DNA of 64,000 nt from Myxococcota bacterium (lineage in GTDB: Bacteria > Myxococcota_A > Polyangia > Polyangiales > Sandaracinaceae). The notes under the pieces were generated by a model. That model worked only from the letters and a program-made list of their open reading frames with translations. It was not told the origin of the DNA and made no database searches. Both the position numbers and the translations under genes were made by a program. The stretch spans positions 22,454 to 86,453 of the forward strand of contig JAYZQJ010000074.1 of NCBI GenBank assembly GCA_036149055.1, given 5' to 3'. Shown one piece after another: positions 18,393 to 21,726 of the stretch (the first letter of the stretch is position 1; each line of letters starts with the position of its first letter).

Positions 18393-20096
18393 CTACGTGT
18401 CCATCGCCGCGCGGATCGCGGCGCCGAGCGCGCGCGGGTCGCCGGGGGCGATCTCGGTGACGCCCTCGAGGCCACGCAGGCCGCAGGCGGGCGAGGCGAT
18501 CACCGGGACGCCGCGACCGAGCGCGCGCAGGAGCGGCGACGGATCCCGGGGGACCCAGGCGGGCGCGACCACGACCGCGGCGCCGTCGAGCGGATCGGCG
18601 CCCGGCGCTCGCACCGGACGGCCCCAGTCGAAGCCGCCCTCGAGGTCGCGGCCGCCCACGATCAGCGGCGAAGGCAGCCCGCGCGCCGCGTCCCGGAGGG
18701 CGTGCGCGCCCTCGCGCCCGACCACCGGCCCGAGGAACGCGATCGCGTCGCCGCGGCGAGCGGGCGCGCCTCGAGGCACGCGCCACGCCAGCTTCACCGC
18801 CCGCGGCCCGAAGGCGTCGGCGATCGCGGCGTGGGGCGTGATCACGCGCCGAGCCCGGGCGAGCGCGACCTCCTCGTCGGCGACGAGCCCGGCCGGGGCG
18901 CGGAAGTCGGCGAGGGTCGGGCTCTCGGGGTGCCGGCGCGCGGCCTCGTCGAGGCGGGCCTGGAGGAGCCGCAGGGGCCAGCGACGCATCACCACGTCGA
19001 AGGTGCGGCCGCCGAGCGCGCCCTCTCGGTGGAGGTGCGGCAGGAGGTGCTGGTGCACCACGAGGTGGGTGTCCTCGGGCCCCAGGCGCGCGGCCATCCA
19101 GCCGGCCAGCCGGGCGTCGTGCGCGAGCAGGGCCCGCTGACGGGCGGCGCCCTGACTGCCGAGCCGACGGCTCTCGAGGGCGCGGCGCGCGACGAGCGCG
19201 AGCGCCTGATCGACACGCGAGAAGCCCGCCGTCGTCCAGGCGTAGCGGGGCCGCCGCCAGCGCTGTCCGTCGCAGGGGATCAGCAGCCGGTCCCCCGGGC
19301 GACGCGCGCCGGAGAGCCAGTCGTCGATCTCCGGCGTCACGCCGTCGAGCAGGAAGGCCGTCCGTCCGACCGGCGCGGCGAGCTCCGGCGCTCTCGAGAC
19401 GCAGCCGGTGCGGGCGCAGCGGTCGCAGCTCCCGGTGGGCTCCGGTCGCCGCGCCAGCGAGACCCGCGTCGGCGCCGCGCCGCGCCCCCGCAGCCGCACC
19501 TCGAGGTGGGTCGCGTCGAGCGCCACCTCCACCCCGAACGGCGCCGGCGCGGTGAAGCGCAGGTCGACGTAGCGCCAGAAGACGGTGGCGTCGCGGCCGC
19601 GCTCGGCGAGCGATCCCGGCACCACGACCGAGTGGGCGTGCCGCTCCACGATCTCGAAGCCGGCCTCGAGCGCGGCGTCGTAGAGGGCGTTCGAGAGCTG
19701 GCAGAGGCCGCCGCCGACCGAGGGCACGAGGCACCCCTCCCGGACCTCGCGCCCGAGCGCGTACCCGCCGCGCCGGGTGGGCCGGCCGACGTGGCGCCAG
19801 AAGCTGAAGATCTCGCCGGCCTCGAACCGCCGCCCGTGCAGCGCGCGCGCCGCGACCCGGAGGTTCTGCACCTTCCCCGCCTCGAGCCGCCGCTCGGCCG
19901 CGGGCTCGGCTGAGCGGGACCAGAGCGGGGTGCGCGAGCGCCCGGCCACCGGGAGATGGTCGATCCCGCCGCGCCGGCCGAGCGGGGTGGGCGCGCGGAG
20001 CTCCGCGGCCGCGCGGATGAGCTGATGACGCGCCGCGCGCGCTTCGAACCAGGCGCGCGACAGCTGCTGCCGCGCCCACGAGCCCTCGCGCTCCAC
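18393..20096 (-). CDS. VanW-domain protein with degenerate glycosyltransferase-like C-terminus
   Basis: GKVQNLR, FSFW..VG, GGGLCQLSNALY, ERHAHS, GRDATVFW.YVDLRF; C-terminal LRALGRGVPVIASPACG. Confidence 0.85.
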   Translation of the reverse strand: MEREGSWARQQLSRAWFEARAARHQLIRAAAELRAPTPLGRRGGIDHLPVAGRSRTPLWSRSAEPAAERRLEAGKVQNLRVAARALHGRRFEAGEIFSFWRHVGRPTRRGGYALGREVREGCLVPSVGGGLCQLSNALYDAALEAGFEIVERHAHSVVVPGSLAERGRDATVFWRYVDLRFTAPAPFGVEVALDATHLEVRLRGRGAAPTRVSLARRPEPTGSCDRCARTGCVSRAPELAAPVGRTAFLLDGVTPEIDDWLSGARRPGDRLLIPCDGQRWRRPRYAWTTAGFSRVDQALALVARRALESRRLGSQGAARQRALLAHDARLAGWMAARLGPEDTHLVVHQHLLPHLHREGALGGRTFDVVMRRWPLRLLQARLDEAARRHPESPTLADFRAPAGLVADEEVALARARRVITPHAAIADAFGPRAVKLAWRVPRGAPARRGDAIAFLGPVVGREGAHALRDAARGLPSPLIVGGRDLEGGFDWGRPVRAPGADPLDGAAVVVAPAWVPRDPSPLLRALGRGVPVIASPACGLRGLEGVTEIAPGDPRALGAAIRAAMDT

Positions 20097-20153
20097 GTCG
20101 GGTCATACGCGCCGGGCCCCCGCCATTCTTCCCCGGGGACGCGGCCGCGGCGA

Positions 20154-20223
20154 CAGGCCGTCAGGGAATCGAACCCTGCGCGGCGGGGGTTGGAAGCCCG
20201 CCTGTGCGCACAGCACCCGGCCT
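20154..20223 (-). tRNA. Irregular tRNA-Trp(CCA)-like gene with miniature D-arm
   Basis: Minus strand: acceptor AGGCCG/CGGCCT with G73; T arm CAGGG-TTCGATT-CCCTG; anticodon loop TT-CCA-AC; 5-nt variable region; D arm CTGT-GCGC-ACAG; no encoded CCA. Confidence 0.7.
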
Positions 20224-20273
20224 ATGTGGATTGTTCCGGACGGAATCGTCCGTTTGATCGCGCGTGCGATCGA

Positions 20274-20367
20274 TCGGGGTGACAGGACTCGAACCTGCAA
20301 TGCCCGAAGGCTCCCGGGCTACAACCGGGTGGGGGTACCAGCTCGTACCAGCTCCCCCTTCACCCCG
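20274..20367 (-). tRNA. Irregular tRNA-Tyr(GTA)-like gene, long variable arm, expanded D-loop
   Basis: Acceptor CGGGGTG/CACCCCG with A73; D stem GGGGG/CCCCC; anticodon arm CCCGG-TTGTAGC-CCGGG; variable arm GCC-TTCG-GGC; T arm GCAGG-TTCGAGT-CCTGT. Confidence 0.8.
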
Positions 20368-20408
20368 CTCTCTCCGCCGTGCGGGGGCGGCGACCGGGCG
20401 GGTGACGG

Positions 20409-20443
20409 AAAAGAAAAACCGCCCGGCCTGGAGGCCTGGGCGG
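20409..20443 (-). terminator. Intrinsic terminator, probably an attenuator, upstream of the tRNA-like genes
   Basis: Minus strand CCGCCC-A-GGCC-TCCA-GGCC-GGGCGG followed by TTTTTCTTTT. Confidence 0.85.
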
Positions 20444-20471
20444 CGATCGATCACGACGCGTACGCGACGGA

Positions 20472-20540
20472 TCAGGCCGACACCGGACCTCCGGTCGGAA
20501 TGCGCCAGACGCGCCAGAGTCGATAGGTGTGACGGCTCAT
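20472..20540 (-). CDS. Putative leader peptide MSRHTYRLWRVWRIPTGGPVSA (22 aa)
   Basis: GGAGG 4 nt before ATG; stops about 30 nt before the terminator; atypical codons TAT, CGA, ATT, GGA, GGT; two TGG. Confidence 0.65.
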   Translation of the reverse strand: MSRHTYRLWRVWRIPTGGPVSA

Positions 20541-20549
20541 GATGCCTCC

Positions 20550-20578
20550 GTCTTACGTCGCCTTCGCGCCCCTGTCAA
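20550..20578 (-). promoter_or_regulatory. Sigma70-like promoter
   Basis: TTGACA (20578-20573), 17-bp spacer, TAAGAC (20555-20550). The -35 overlaps the methyltransferase stop codon. Confidence 0.55.
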
Positions 20579-21663
20579 GAGATCAGTGACAGTTGTTCGT
20601 CGCCCTTCAATCCGGCTTCGTGGAACGCCCGCTCCACCGAGGCCGCGGCGCGCTCCACCCGAGCTCGGTCGGGGCCGACGAGGAAGATCATCTCCCGGTT
20701 GCGGGTGTGGCTGACCTCGCCGACCCGCCGGCCCTTGGGATCGTGGATGCCGATCTTGGCGCCGACGTACCGATCGAAGCCGGTGGTGGCCACCCGGACG
20801 TGGCCGCGCTCGGAGAGCATCGCCTCGAGCGTCTCCCGGTCGAGGAAGCCCTCGTCGCTGAAGCTCACCACCAGCTCGGGGGCGCGCACCGCGGCCACCA
20901 CCCGCGCCATCGCCTCGGCGATGCGGCGGCGGCTGTTGAAGGGGTTCTTGTAGGTCTTGCAGTCGATCCGCTTGTTCGCGACGCCGTAGGTCTCCGGATC
21001 GTCCCAGCGCACCAGGGTCTCCCACACGTGGTAGTTCCCCTTGTAGCTGTGCTGGTTGTAGGGCGGGTCGAGGTAGGCCACGTCCGCCTCGACCCCGGCC
21101 GCCTCCTCCGCCTCGAGCTGGAGCGCCTCGCCCGGCCCCTCGGTGAGCGCCGGCAGCCGCAACGCGAGCGGGTTGTAGCTGCGCTTCGCCCAGCTCTTCA
21201 GGTACGCCATCTGGACGCCGGTCGTGGAGTCGACGCGGTCCGCGGCCTCCATGAGCGCGGTGAGCGCGATGGCCTCGAGCTCCGGTGAGAGCGTCTGGGC
21301 CGCGATCGCCTCGCGCATGCCCTCCACCCGGGCGCCGTTGTCGGGCTGCAGGTAGCGCGCGTCCCGGCAGAAGGCCTGCGTGAACCAGCCGTCCCGCGGC
21401 GGCGCCTCGGCCAGCGCCTCGAGCAGCCGCGCGGCCGGCTCGCGGTGCTCCCGGGCGTCCGCCGCCACGTAGCAGCGCGCGAGGGTCGCCGCGTAGGCGA
21501 GGTGGTCGTTGGAGGTCACCCGGAGCCCGGCCTCCTTGAGCGCGCGCCCCACCCGCGCCGTCCCGCTGAAGAGATCGAGCGCGCGCTTCGCGCCGCCGAA
21601 GCCGGTGACGCCGGCCACGATCGGGCCGATGAGCTTGCGCTTGCTGCCGATGTACTTGATCAC
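20575..21663 (-). CDS. Adenine-specific DNA methyltransferase (D12 class)
   Basis: IKYIGSK, DLFSGTARV, YLDPPYNQHSY. Confidence 0.92.
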   Translation of the reverse strand: MIKYIGSKRKLIGPIVAGVTGFGGAKRALDLFSGTARVGRALKEAGLRVTSNDHLAYAATLARCYVAADAREHREPAARLLEALAEAPPRDGWFTQAFCRDARYLQPDNGARVEGMREAIAAQTLSPELEAIALTALMEAADRVDSTTGVQMAYLKSWAKRSYNPLALRLPALTEGPGEALQLEAEEAAGVEADVAYLDPPYNQHSYKGNYHVWETLVRWDDPETYGVANKRIDCKTYKNPFNSRRRIAEAMARVVAAVRAPELVVSFSDEGFLDRETLEAMLSERGHVRVATTGFDRYVGAKIGIHDPKGRRVGEVSHTRNREMIFLVGPDRARVERAAASVERAFHEAGLKGDEQLSLIS

Positions 21664-21726
21664 GCCGAGCGCATCTTCGTCGATCCCCCTCCCGTCGCAA
21701 GGCGGTTGACTGATATTCTCGCGGCC

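What the first reader, a model, noticed from the sequence alone, without database searches (positions are those of the whole stretch)
20154..20578. Candidate undescribed system: ribosome-attenuator-controlled cassette of non-canonical tRNAs
Seen, in order on the - strand: TTGACA-17-TAAGAC promoter, 22-aa ORF with one Tyr and two Trp codons, strong intrinsic terminator, tRNA-Tyr(GTA)-like gene, two small spacer hairpins, tRNA-Trp(CCA)-like gene, VanW-domain gene. The ORF track shows none of this. Known: leader-peptide attenuation (trp operon type) normally controls biosynthesis or resistance proteins, while housekeeping tRNAs are not placed behind terminators. Inference: an emergency tRNA supply switched on by ribosome stalling (Trp/Tyr tRNA depletion, anticodon-nuclease attack, antibiotics). 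The leader contains the codons the downstream RNAs would read, giving a feedback loop; the odd structures could evade or decoy tRNA-targeting toxins.
Basis: partly seen in the sequence, partly recalled or inferred. Interest (0 to 1): 0.9.

Follow-up and report, generated by a model that had tools for sequence, protein, structure and literature searches.

The report
Attenuator-gated spare tRNA cassette
A 429-base insert carrying two oddly shaped spare tRNA genes behind a tiny test gene and a transcription stop signal is a cut-down copy of the long tRNA gene arrays found in its bacterial order, which look wired to switch on when ribosomes lag.

Summary
The cassette is not a one-off. It is a two-gene offshoot of the long tRNA arrays of Polyangiales (Myxococcota).

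In 19 array leaders from relatives, a small ORF ends at a stop codon (TAG, once TAA among the 14 read by eye). The last base of that stop begins an antiterminator arm (GGGCGGTC) that competes with a conserved intrinsic terminator. The switch covaries. The ORF's frame is kept open (median 80 codons against 21-22 in the other frames).

An exact-pattern scan of 185,579 species genomes gave 10 Myxococcota matches. All 10 are followed by same-strand tRNAs.

The window's leader is a diverged member. It has the same promoter/ATG spacing as this genome's own 14-tRNA array. Its antiterminator arm lies in the last seven codons and competes with a terminator about 10 kcal/mol stronger.

The Trp(CCA) gene belongs to a conserved non-canonical tRNA family. 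The Tyr gene has a window-specific 10-nt duplication.

A near-identical strain lacks the whole 429 bp.

Codon-specific Tyr/Trp feedback and toxin evasion remain untested. My literature searches found no description of attenuator-controlled tRNA genes. Earlier unchecked notes from this scan report analogous leaders on other DNA, mostly phages.

The parts
20145..20573 (-). The whole 429-bp cassette: the A of TTGACA through 9 nt past the Trp-like gene
   Evidence: RNA-library contigs from two runs of one study join 20144 directly to 20574 at 99+% identity, with no microhomology. The same unit sits at the same place in G001.
20550..20578 (-). Promoter-like TTGACA-17-TAAGAC. The -35 overlaps the methyltransferase stop codon.
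   Evidence: Sequence read. The architecture TTGAC-N18-TAAGAC-N5-CATCATG occurs only here and upstream of the own-genome tRNA array on C148. The consensus scanner did not call it.
20472..20540 (-). Leader ORF of 22 codons plus TGA. The ATG lies 9 nt after the -10, so the mRNA is probably leaderless or nearly so.
   Evidence: Translation. G001 has a 26-codon ORF with the same start, an in-frame 12-nt indel and the same stop position.
20476..20494 (-). Antiterminator 5' arm (last seven codons, GGAGGUCCGGUGUCGGC region). It pairs with 20444-20427.
   Evidence: This pairing is the minimum-energy fold of the transcript before the terminator's 3' arm exists. P(paired) is 0.98 without a ribosome, 0.00-0.54 with the A site at codons 13 and 15-21, and 0.86 at codon 14.
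20448..20474 (-). Hairpin overlapping the stop codon. It corresponds to the variable middle hairpin of canonical array leaders.
   Evidence: A structurally equivalent hairpin with a different sequence is present in G001.
20409..20444 (-). Intrinsic terminator: bulged 11-bp stem, UCCA loop, UUUUUCUUUU tract
   Evidence: It is homologous to the CCGCCC...GGGCGG-T run terminator of the array leaders. Model R2 matches 20408-20495 at 20.2 bits, E = 9e-4.
20274..20367 (-). Array-type tRNA-Tyr(GTA). Features: C1-G72, A73, A8, G37, long variable arm, and a window-specific tandem duplication of GAGCTGGTAC in the D loop (20354-20335).
   Evidence: G001 and G018 lack the duplication. Identity to G001 is 94% outside the duplication.
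20224..20273 (-). Spacer with two small hairpins
   Evidence: Identity to G001 is 66%.
20154..20223 (-). Non-canonical tRNA-Trp(CCA). Features: A1-U72, G73, 7:66 mismatch, 4-bp D stem with a 5-nt loop lacking GG, 6-bp anticodon stem plus a C-C mismatch, 3-nt variable loop, canonical T arm.
   Evidence: Model R1 scores it at 86.1 bits.
18393..20096 (-). VanW-domain gene, a downstream neighbour and not part of the cassette
   Evidence: Pfam PF04294, E = 1.6e-33. It is adjacent to the methyltransferase only in G000 and G001 among the 12 family loci fetched.
20575..21690 (-). D12-class N6-adenine DNA methyltransferase, an upstream neighbour and a family-wide core gene
   Evidence: Pfam PF02086, E = 2.5e-29. 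It matches in 28 of 32 family genomes.

Best explanation
The 429-bp cassette is a reduced, two-gene paralogue of the long tRNA arrays of Polyangiales, together with the arrays' leader module.

How the canonical arrays are built. A strong promoter drives a small ORF. The last base of that ORF's stop codon begins segment A (GGGCGGUC). A pairs with B (GACCGCCC). B is also the 5' arm of an intrinsic terminator (B:C, followed by a U tract) that sits 18-480 nt before the first tRNA.

How the switch would work (inferred). A ribosome that keeps pace with the polymerase and reaches the last codons covers A and the ORF-internal arm. B is then free to pair with C, and transcription stops. If ribosomes are late, stalled or absent, A:B forms first and the polymerase runs on into the tRNA genes. 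The array would then be a reserve tRNA supply switched on by poor translation.

The window copy. It keeps the promoter/ATG spacing, a 22-codon ORF, the middle hairpin and the terminator. Its antiterminator arm lies wholly inside the last seven codons, and its terminator is about 10 kcal/mol more stable than the alternative fold. It therefore probably terminates most of the time. It would read through when ribosomes stall at or before codon 12, a stretch that holds Tyr6, Trp9 and Trp12.

The two products. Both are array-type supernumerary tRNAs kept by selection. The Trp gene is one of a conserved non-canonical family. The Tyr copy carries a recent 10-nt duplication that may have disabled it.

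Shown: homology, the mutually exclusive folds, covariation, maintenance of the ORF frame, and the association with tRNAs. Inferred: translation of the ORF, ribosome control of the switch, induction under stress, and aminoacylation of the tRNAs.
For: Derivation from arrays:
- Relatives of the Tyr gene are the first gene of arrays of 7-21 tRNAs.
- The Trp type sits inside arrays in 12 of the 14 hits scoring 58.6 bits or more, found in 13 of 151 order genomes.
- The promoter/ATG motif occurs twice in the genome: here and before the C148 array. That array lacks Tyr and the Trp type.

The switch in canonical leaders:
- In 14 of 14 canonical leaders, the fold before C is made is A:B, starting at the stop codon's last base or, in one (the TAA leader), the base after it (-27 to -34 kcal/mol). 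Masking 15 nt from the stop gives the terminator in 14 of 14.
- Equilibrium P(terminator) without a ribosome is below 0.65 in 11 of 14 and at or above 0.91 in the other three. It is at least 0.95 in 14 of 14 when the A site is in the last two codons or the stop.
- On 19 leaders, 82.5% of cells are paired against 37-43% when the partners are slid. Of 15 pairs, 12 show double changes, and 0 of 500 shuffles reach the observed values (the alignment was fitted to the model).
- The frame ending at the conserved stop is open for at least 63 codons in 14 of 14 (median 80.5, against 21 and 22.5 in the other frames).
- Substitutions are spread evenly over codon positions. The frame matters, not the peptide.

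Association with tRNAs:
- The exact pattern gave 14 matches in 185,579 species genomes. Ten are in Myxococcota, and 10 of 10 have same-strand tRNAs downstream. The other four matches have none.

The window leader:
- Model R2 matches it over its full length (20.2 bits, E = 9e-4 in 174 kb).
- The fold before C exists sequesters the terminator arm with P = 0.98 unless the ribosome's A site is at codons 13 or 15-21 (P at codon 14 stays 0.86).

Selection on the tRNAs:
- Identity to G001 is 94% (Tyr) and 90% (Trp), against 57-73% in spacers and flanking genes. Four of the seven Trp differences form two compensatory pairs.
- In the Trp family, 91.4% of cells are paired and 12 of 22 pairs show double changes.

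RNA evidence:
- An RNA-library contig (20529-20374, one study) bridges the termination point.
Against: - There is no direct evidence of translation, termination or read-through. The RNA evidence is one 156-nt contig, which cannot show ends or strand.
- For the window and G001, equilibrium folding gives the terminator at nearly every ribosome position (0.86-1.0 and 0.96-1.0). The free-energy gap is 9.8-13 kcal/mol, against 1.4-7.9 in canonical leaders.
- G001 and G018 did not reach E = 0.01 with model R2, and G001's fold before C exists is less clear-cut.
- Three of 14 canonical leaders, including this genome's own C148 leader, also favour the terminator at equilibrium.
- At least two related arrays (G021, G041) show no such leader.
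- The 10-nt D-loop duplication and the existence of a strain without the cassette fit dispensability.
- The covariation alignment for the switch was fitted to the model.
Confidence: 0.6

Rival explanations
1. Codon-specific feedback attenuator. The leader senses shortage of charged tRNA-Tyr and tRNA-Trp specifically, through stalling at UAU and UGG, and answers by making exactly those tRNAs, in the manner of the trp operon.
For: - The window leader has Tyr6, Trp9 and Trp12. G001 keeps TY.LW. G018 has two Tyr.
- In the fold before C exists, Trp12 is the last codon at which a stalled ribosome leaves the antiterminator intact: 0.98 at W12 and 0.27 at R13.
- This genome's long array lacks exactly Tyr and this Trp type.
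Against: - The counts are 4 Tyr and 3 Trp in 63 residues of three related, non-independent leaders. G018 has no Trp.
- In the model, a stall anywhere in codons 1-12, or no translation at all, gives the same outcome, so no codon specificity is required.
- Canonical leaders in front of arrays of 10-21 tRNAs show no selection on the peptide.
- Making more tRNA does not relieve amino-acid starvation.
Confidence: 0.2
2. Decaying relic. The cassette is a leftover fragment of an array behind a now constitutive terminator, and the two tRNA genes are silent or non-functional pseudogenes on their way out.
For: - The Tyr D loop carries a window-specific 10-nt duplication.
- Rfam scores are low.
- The terminator is about 10 kcal/mol more stable than the alternative fold.
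- The cassette is absent from a 99+% identical strain.
- G001 shows a degenerate third tRNA remnant after the Trp gene.
Against: - The tRNAs are 90-94% identical between two species whose flanking genes are 68-73% identical, and they carry compensatory pair changes.
- The Trp type is a conserved covarying family, not a degraded canonical tRNA.
- The alternative fold and the ORF are retained in three genomes.
- An RNA contig covers the leader and runs past the terminator.
Confidence: 0.15
3. The hairpin switch is real but is set by something other than the ribosome, such as a protein, a small RNA, a tRNA or a ligand. On this view the ORF is incidental.
For: - Leader peptides are not conserved across clades.
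- The conserved 'GF.G' and 'E[DG]P' codons are explained by RNA pairing with the terminator's apical region.
Against: - A stop codon (13 TAG, 1 TAA) abuts or overlaps segment A in 14 of 14 leaders, and only that frame is kept open. In-frame indels occur.
- No Rfam family, T-box included, matches the window or five canonical loci.
Confidence: 0.1
4. The terminator is simply the methyltransferase gene's terminator, and the tRNAs are ordinary genes that happen to lie downstream.
For: The terminator lies about 130 nt after the methyltransferase stop codon.
Against: - The terminator is inside the 429 bp that a near-identical strain lacks.
- It is homologous to the array-leader terminators.
- Ten other family genomes have the methyltransferase with no tRNAs within 1.5 kb.
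- In G018 the cassette lies elsewhere.
- There is no room for a promoter between the terminator and the Tyr gene: the gap is about 41 nt here and 8 nt in G018.
Confidence: 0.03

Closest known systems
Leader-peptide transcription attenuators of amino-acid operons (trpL, hisL, pheL and others)
   Same: A short leader ORF, an intrinsic terminator, and a mutually exclusive antiterminator that shares the terminator's 5' arm. The ribosome's position near the leader's stop codon decides the outcome. As I recall for E. coli trp, the terminator is thermodynamically stronger than the antiterminator, so the choice is kinetic.
   Different: The regulated genes are tRNAs, not biosynthetic enzymes. Canonical array leaders have 48-74 codons with no run of regulatory codons. 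No 'segment 1' enforces termination when translation is absent, so any loss of translation should give read-through.
Ribosome-mediated attenuators of antibiotic-resistance genes (erm, cat, vmlR and msrD-type leaders; recalled, not read here)
   Same: They sense slowed or stalled translation in general, through a short leader ORF coupled to a terminator/antiterminator.
   Different: Those leaders control resistance proteins and often use specific arrest peptides. Here the output is a set of tRNAs, and the peptide is not conserved.
Long tRNA arrays (L-arrays), e.g. the Anabaena PCC 7120 trn operon (PMC8421152, PMC10272220)
   Same: Supernumerary tRNA genes in long arrays beside a housekeeping set. 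In Anabaena they are silent until translation is impaired, which is the same physiological logic as inferred here. Some array genes there are pseudogenes.
   Different: In Anabaena the control is a protein repressor, TrcR (abstract of PMC10272220). A text search of PMC8421152 found 0 occurrences of 'terminator' or 'leader'. The window holds only two genes, so it is not itself a long array.
Compact-D-arm tRNAs (tRNA-Pyl, mitochondrial tRNA-Ser(UCN); recalled)
   Same: The Trp type has a short D loop without the usual GG in the window copy, 0-1 nt between the acceptor and D stems, a lengthened anticodon stem and a 3-nt variable loop.
   Different: It has a CCA (Trp) anticodon, bacterial Trp identity marks (A1-U72, G73; recalled) and a fully canonical GGTTCGA T arm. 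There is no sign of a dedicated synthetase.
T-box riboswitches
   Same: A leader terminator/antiterminator that responds to tRNA status.
   Different: No Rfam T-box match in the window or in five canonical loci. T-boxes control synthetase and amino-acid genes, and they have no leader ORF.

Membership tests
Ribosome-mediated (leader-peptide) transcription attenuator | Short ORF in the leader that is translated | tested here: inconclusive
   The ORF is present. The frame ending at the conserved stop is kept open in 14 of 14 canonical leaders (median 80.5 codons against 21 and 22.5). G001 keeps the start, the stop and an in-frame indel. Translation itself cannot be tested with these tools.
Ribosome-mediated (leader-peptide) transcription attenuator | Intrinsic terminator between the leader ORF and the regulated genes | tested here: met
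   The stem at 20444-20418 plus a U tract lies 41 nt before the Tyr gene. The same holds in 19 array leaders.
Ribosome-mediated (leader-peptide) transcription attenuator | Antiterminator mutually exclusive with the terminator | tested here: met
   Canonical leaders: 14 of 14, with covariation. Window: the alternative fold is the minimum-energy structure before the 3' arm exists, but it is 9.8 kcal/mol weaker than the terminator fold.
Ribosome-mediated (leader-peptide) transcription attenuator | Ribosome position selects the fold | tested here: inconclusive
   Tested by masking models only. Canonical leaders switch to the terminator at the last 2-3 codons. In the window the antiterminator is lost with the A site at codons 13 and 15-21 (P at codon 14 stays 0.86). 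No experiment was done.
Ribosome-mediated (leader-peptide) transcription attenuator | Regulatory codons matching the regulated pathway | tested here: inconclusive
   Window: 1 Tyr and 2 Trp in 22 residues. G001: 1 and 1 in 26. G018: 2 and 0 in 15. The numbers are too small and the leaders are related. Canonical leaders show no pattern.
Long tRNA array (L-array, PMC8421152) | Long run of same-strand tRNA genes (up to 43), far more than accretion would predict | tested here: not met
   The window has two genes. Its relatives are in arrays of 7-21 genes. The genome's own array on C148 has 14.
Long tRNA array (L-array, PMC8421152) | Supernumerary to a housekeeping set | tested here: met
   A canonical tRNA-Trp lies on C47 (70.6 bits) and another tRNA-Tyr on C208 (59.8 bits). 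The draft assembly is incomplete for tRNAs.
Long tRNA array (L-array, PMC8421152) | Silent, and induced by translational stress | not testable with these tools
   The architecture of the leader is the only evidence.
Canonical elongator tRNA (Rfam RF00005) | Reaches the family's gathering score with standard core features (U8, G18G19, 5-bp anticodon stem) | tested here: not met
   No match at gathering with default filters. Tyr scores 29.5 against 29 only with relaxed filters, and it has A8 and a 19-nt D loop. Trp fails the tRNA model and has a compact D arm and a 6-bp anticodon stem.
tRNA pseudogene | No constraint on sequence or structure | tested here: not met
   Identity to G001 is 90-94% against 57-73% for the surroundings, with compensatory changes and family-wide covariation. 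The Tyr duplication may be a recent inactivating event and is left open.
T-box riboswitch | Match to the T-box model | tested here: not met
   No Rfam match at gathering threshold, or at E up to 10, in 20000-20700.

The most novel reading that the evidence does not exclude
Polyangiales keep a reserve set of tRNA genes (long arrays, plus small offshoots such as this cassette) behind a ribosome-sensing attenuator. On this reading, these would be the first tRNA genes shown to be controlled by leader-ORF attenuation.

The non-canonical builds of the reserve tRNAs are adaptive. Examples are A8 in 13 of 15 array Tyr genes, the C1-G72/G37 Tyr subtype, and the Trp family with a minimal D arm. These builds would let the tRNAs escape tRNA-cleaving toxins or other damage that hits the housekeeping set. 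When decoding falters, the cell would then transcribe replacements that the attacker cannot recognise.

In the small cassette, the leader's Tyr and Trp codons would make the response specific to the two tRNAs it carries.
Probability: 0.25. Interest if true: 0.9.

Novelty: new variant of a known kind. Interest (0 to 1): 0.75.

Why it matters
Leader-ORF attenuation is a textbook control for amino-acid and resistance genes. Inducible spare tRNA arrays are known from one cyanobacterium, where a protein repressor does the job.

Here the two ideas meet. A conserved, covarying ribosome-position switch sits directly in front of tRNA genes across several families of a bacterial order. This genome holds both a full and a cut-down version.

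If it works as inferred, tRNA supply itself is under feedback from decoding performance. That gives a direct and testable handle on what supernumerary tRNA arrays are for.

It also delivers a new, conserved non-canonical tRNA-Trp architecture whose charging and ribosomal use can be tested. The empty-site strain shows that such cassettes are gained or lost within a species.

Tried and rejected
- The consensus scanner found no promoter and no terminator in 19800-20900. The elements are there but fall outside its rules.
- Rfam at gathering threshold found nothing in the window. Relaxed hits to rnk_pseudo, ncS037, P5 and others are far below their cut-offs and were set aside as chance.
- BLAST with the Trp gene alone found it in only 2 of 32 family genomes and missed G018. 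A covariance model was needed.
- RNAalifold on a MAFFT alignment of 15 Tyr genes recovered only the anticodon and T arms, because the window's duplication misaligned the 5' end. I counted stems by script instead.
- MAFFT put three leaders one column out of register, so I did not count pairs on alignment A2. I used folding per sequence and a model-fitted alignment.
- My first reading was that the window, G001 and G018 have no antiterminator. It rested on folding from the stop codon onward and on equilibrium probabilities. I revised it after folding the whole leader and the transcript before the 3' arm exists.
- Peptide-level function of the leader ORFs is not supported. Substitutions are spread evenly over codon positions, and the conserved motifs are explained by RNA pairing.
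- Runs X16, X17 and X19 have no contig on the cassette, and X18 has none on the tRNAs or flanking genes. Missing cover is not evidence of silence.
- The four non-Myxococcota matches to the exact pattern have no tRNAs downstream and were treated as unrelated.
- A look-up of earlier scan notes near this place and by leader sequence gave nothing.
- I did not use protein homology searches, structure prediction or complex prediction. No claim here depends on them.
Full report
**What is in the window**

Read on the - strand, the sequence runs as follows.
- A D12-class DNA methyltransferase gene (PF02086, E = 2.5e-29) ends with TGA at 20577-20575.
- That stop lies inside TTGACA (20578-20573). After 17 nt comes TAAGAC (20555-20550), and 9 nt later an ATG at 20540.
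- The ORF reads MSRHTYRLWRVWRIPTGGPVSA*.
- A hairpin at 20474-20448 overlaps the stop codon.
- A bulged GC-rich stem at 20444-20418 is followed by UUUUUCUUUU (z = -4.3).
- Next come a tRNA-Tyr(GTA)-like gene (20367-20274), a spacer with two hairpins and a tRNA-Trp(CCA)-like gene (20223-20154).
- After 57 nt a VanW-domain gene begins (20096-18393, PF04294).

ARAGORN calls both tRNAs. Rfam at gathering threshold calls neither. With relaxed filters the Tyr gene scores 29.5 bits against a cut-off of 29, with a 13-nt D-loop insertion, and the Trp gene fails the tRNA model. Both fold as cloverleaves. The simple promoter and terminator scanner saw nothing.

**The cassette is an offshoot of long tRNA arrays**

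A DNA search of 41 relatives matched 11 genomes, G000 included.
- G001, of the same genus, has the same unit at the same place behind the same methyltransferase and before VanW.
- G018, of another genus, has ORF, terminator, Tyr, Trp and an Ile(GAT) gene on a short contig. The downstream gene there is different, and the unit is not beside that genome's methyltransferase.
- In other relatives the Tyr homologue is the first gene of arrays of 7 to 21 tRNAs.
- The window's own genome has a 14-tRNA array on contig C148. It lacks Tyr and the Trp type.
- In the whole 9.9-Mb genome, TTGAC-N29-CATCATG occurs twice: at the window cassette and in front of that array. Both copies have TTGACA-17-TAAGAC.

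Long arrays (L-arrays) are a known kind of element. They contribute supernumerary tRNAs and occur in scattered species of several phyla, all classes of Proteobacteria among them (PMC8421152, section 18 read).

**A conserved switch heads the arrays**

Upstream of arrays in many Polyangiales genomes the same module recurs.
- A promoter has an A/T-rich upstream tract and CTTGACC.
- An ORF of roughly 48-74 codons follows.
- Its stop codon is TAG in 13 of the first 14 leaders and TAA in one. In the 13 TAG leaders its last base begins GGGCGGTC or GGCGGT (segment A); in the TAA leader A starts at the next base.
- A small variable hairpin comes next, then GACCGCCC (segment B), then a small hairpin, then GGGCGG (segment C) and a run of T.

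A and C are the same word, and both are complementary to B. The folding results are:
- In 14 of 14 leaders, the minimum-energy fold of the transcript before C exists is A:B, starting at the stop codon's last base or, in the TAA leader, the base after it (-27 to -34 kcal/mol).
- Masking the stop codon plus 12 nt gives the terminator in 14 of 14.
- The two states differ by only 1.4-7.9 kcal/mol.
- Equilibrium probabilities of the terminator are below 0.65 without a ribosome in 11 of 14. The exceptions are L052, L040 and the own-genome C148 leader. They rise to at least 0.95 in all 14 when the A site is in the last two codons or the stop.

A covariance model of the A:B fold found 19 leaders among the loci held. 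On their model-fitted alignment:
- 82.5% of cells pair, against 37-43% when the partners are slid.
- 12 of 15 pairs show changes on both sides.
- 0 of 500 shuffles reach the observed values.

A fitted alignment leans towards its own structure.

The ORF evidence is as follows.
- The frame that ends at the conserved stop is open for at least 63 codons in 14 of 14 (median 80.5). The other two frames have medians of 21 and 22.5.
- Among four related leaders, substitutions fall evenly on the three codon positions.
- The conserved 'GF.G' and 'E[DG]P' codons are the complement of the terminator's apical region.
- What is kept is therefore an open frame and its stop position, not a protein.

For specificity, the exact pattern TAGGGCGGT-N8-36-ACCGCCC-N6-24-GGGCGGTTT was scanned over one genome for each of 185,579 species and matched 14 places.
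- Ten are in Myxococcota records (Polyangiales, Myxococcales and Sandaracinaceae MAGs). All ten are followed by same-strand tRNAs 18-480 nt downstream, with up to 18 tRNAs within 2.5 kb.
- The other four (two betaproteobacterial MAGs, a Desulfovibrio and a Deinococcus) have none.

Rfam finds no known leader family in five canonical loci. Not every related array has the module. The G021 and G041 arrays do not.

**How the switch most likely works (inference)**

A ribosome that follows the polymerase closely and reaches the end of the ORF covers A and the ORF-internal arm. B then pairs with C and transcription ends. If the ribosome is late, stalled or absent, A:B forms as soon as B is made, and the polymerase runs into the tRNA genes.

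This is the logic of leader-peptide attenuation. There is no segment that enforces termination without translation, so any failure of translation should open the array. It fits what is known for the Anabaena array, which is silent until translation is impaired. Control there is by the repressor TrcR (abstracts of PMC8421152 and PMC10272220). 'Terminator' and 'leader' do not occur in PMC8421152.

**The window's copy of the switch**

The canonical model matches 20408-20495 over its full length, but weakly (20.2 bits, E = 9e-4 in 174 kb). G001 and G018 stay above E = 0.01.

The ancestral TAG-GGCGG appears to have changed. Compare GGAGGGTCCGGTGTAGGGCGG in L031 with GGAGGTCCGGTGTCGGCCTGA here. The ORF runs two codons further, and the post-stop arm is gone.

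Folding from the stop codon onward shows no antiterminator. At equilibrium the terminator dominates at almost every ribosome position: 0.86-1.0 for the window and 0.96-1.0 for G001.

Folding the whole leader shows an alternative.
- The last seven codons (20494-20476) pair with the terminator's 5' arm and loop (20444-20427), enclosing the stop-codon hairpin.
- This state is 9.8 kcal/mol less stable than the terminator fold. The gap is 10.0 in G001 and 13.0 in G018.
- It is nevertheless the minimum-energy fold before the 3' arm exists (-37.6 kcal/mol over 80 nt, within the canonical range of -32.5 to -49.3).

In that pre-terminator transcript the arm is sequestered as follows.
- P = 0.98 with no ribosome, and 0.90-0.98 with the A site at codons 1-12.
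- P = 0.27 at codon 13, 0.86 at codon 14 and 0.00-0.54 at codons 15-21.
- P = 0.62 at codon 22 and 0.85 at the stop.

Tyr6, Trp9 and Trp12 all lie in the permissive stretch, and Trp12 is its last codon.

As I recall, the E. coli trp terminator is also much more stable than its antiterminator, so a large equilibrium gap does not exclude a kinetic switch. I rate the window copy as probably still switchable but biased towards termination. G001's model is less clear.

**The tRNAs**

The Trp gene:
- It is one of a conserved non-canonical family.
- Nine distinct sequences align with 91.4% of cells paired. Twelve of 22 pairs change on both sides, and 0 of 500 shuffles reach this.
- Its features are A1-U72, G73, a mostly mismatched 7:66 pair, a 4-bp D stem with a 3-5-nt loop, a 6-7-bp anticodon stem, a 3-nt variable loop and a canonical T arm.
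- A model of the family finds 14 hits of 58.6 bits or more in 13 of 151 order genomes. The next hit scores 51.4 and belongs to ordinary tRNAs.
- Twelve of the 14 lie inside arrays, typically between Asn and Asp. Two (G000 and G001) lie in the small cassette.
- A canonical tRNA-Trp exists elsewhere in the genome (C47, 70.6 bits).

The Tyr gene:
- It belongs to the array-type Tyr family. All 15 sequences have 7 of 7 acceptor pairs with varied sequences, and 13 of 15 have A at position 8.
- The window, G001 and G018 form a subtype with C1-G72 and G37.
- The window alone has a tandem duplication of GAGCTGGTAC in the D loop, which may have disabled it.

Between the window and G001, the Tyr gene is 94% identical outside the duplication and the Trp gene 90%. 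Spacers and flanking coding sequence are 57-73% identical. Four of the seven Trp differences form two compensatory pairs. These are not freely decaying pseudogenes.

**The cassette is dispensable and bounded**

RNA-library contigs from two runs of one study, 99+% identical to the window, join 20144 to 20574 and skip exactly 20145-20573 with no shared letters at the joint. The simplest reading is a strain without the cassette.

Most DNA holders carry 0.78-1.00 of the words of 19900-20900 and so must hold at least part of the cassette.

A 156-nt contig from another study's RNA library covers 20529-20374. That span runs from codon 4 of the leader, through the terminator, to 7 nt before the Tyr gene. 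This would fit a read-through leader cut at the tRNA's 5' end. It is one contig, however, and contigs show neither ends nor strand.

The methyltransferase is a core gene, matching in 28 of 32 family genomes. That tally includes the unpublished genome G023, from which nothing else is used. In ten other family loci it has no tRNA within 1.5 kb.

**Comparison with what is known, and novelty**

The module works like a leader-peptide attenuator, or like a ribosome-mediated resistance-gene attenuator. What it controls is an L-array-type set of spare tRNAs.

I found no description of this combination.
- 'tRNA array' with 'leader peptide' gave 0 papers.
- Four of five terms on tRNA genes, attenuation, stalling, leader ORF and tRNA depletion gave 0 papers.
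- No listed paper joined the tRNA-array terms to 'antiterminator' or 'attenuator'.
- None of the 12 listed papers (of 24 matching) joined Myxococc- to the array terms.
- Two further searches gave only the Anabaena and survey papers.

The library lacks most subscription journals, and I did not read supplements.

Earlier AI notes of this scan describe leader-ORF attenuators before tRNA arrays on other DNA, mostly phages and one other genome. I did not test them, and they are not independent support.

I class the finding as a new variant of a known kind.

**Verdict**

- Supported by homology and modelling: an attenuator-type leader gating non-canonical tRNAs.
- Untested: codon-matched feedback and toxin evasion.
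- Not part of the unit: VanW.
- The cassette is a reduced array derivative rather than a stand-alone system.

Noticed in passing
window 20145-20573; contigs of runs X16 and X17: A form that joins the methyltransferase stop directly to the VanW upstream region, lacking the whole 429-bp cassette, exists in RNA-library contigs 99+% identical to the window. There is no microhomology at the joint. The right-hand joint falls in the centre of the palindrome CGCGGCCGCG.
   Followed up: partly
own genome C30:3449-3539, C42:30971-31061, C94:12-102, C128:19-109, C150:27219-27309, C192:9124-9214: Six near-identical copies of a 91-nt element that ARAGORN calls 'tRNA-???' (two-base anticodon). Five of the six lie within about 110 nt of a contig end. 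They are probably the terminus of a repeated mobile element.
   Followed up: no
own genome C208:24813-24883: A well-scoring tRNA-Tyr(GTA) (59.8 bits) with a short variable arm and G73, which is unusual for a bacterial tRNA-Tyr. No ordinary long-arm housekeeping tRNA-Tyr was found in this draft, which also lacks several Ser and Leu tRNAs.
   Followed up: no
own genome C148 (locus L019:3470-9300): The genome's 14-tRNA array has the canonical leader. It also has a second strong terminator 3 nt before its first tRNA (Lys), about 350 nt after the first terminator. The array lacks Tyr and the non-canonical Trp, which are exactly the two kinds held by the window cassette.
   Followed up: partly
L036:11-143 (-), genome G105: An Rfam YrlA (Y RNA-like) match at 70.1 bits (cut-off 69) lies at the distal end of a tRNA array. 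In other bacteria, as I recall, Y RNA-like genes accompany RNA-repair operons.
   Followed up: no
L009, L036, L052 and L039 leaders: The conserved 'GF.G' codons of these leader peptides (GGCUUUGCC) are the reverse complement of the terminator's apical hairpin (GGCAAACGCC). They form an outer helix of the antiterminator. The peptide motif is therefore explained by RNA pairing.
   Followed up: partly
L060, L064, L066, L067: Four matches to the exact leader pattern lie outside Myxococcota (two betaproteobacterial MAGs, Desulfovibrio sp. DV, Deinococcus antarcticus), with no tRNA within 2.5 kb. They could be chance or unrelated A:B:C-type attenuators.
   Followed up: no
L021 (G001), just after the Trp-like gene; L003:345-416 (G018): G018 has a third gene, tRNA-Ile(GAT)-like, after the Trp gene. 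G001 keeps a degraded remnant of it with a ruined T loop. The window has lost it.
   Followed up: partly
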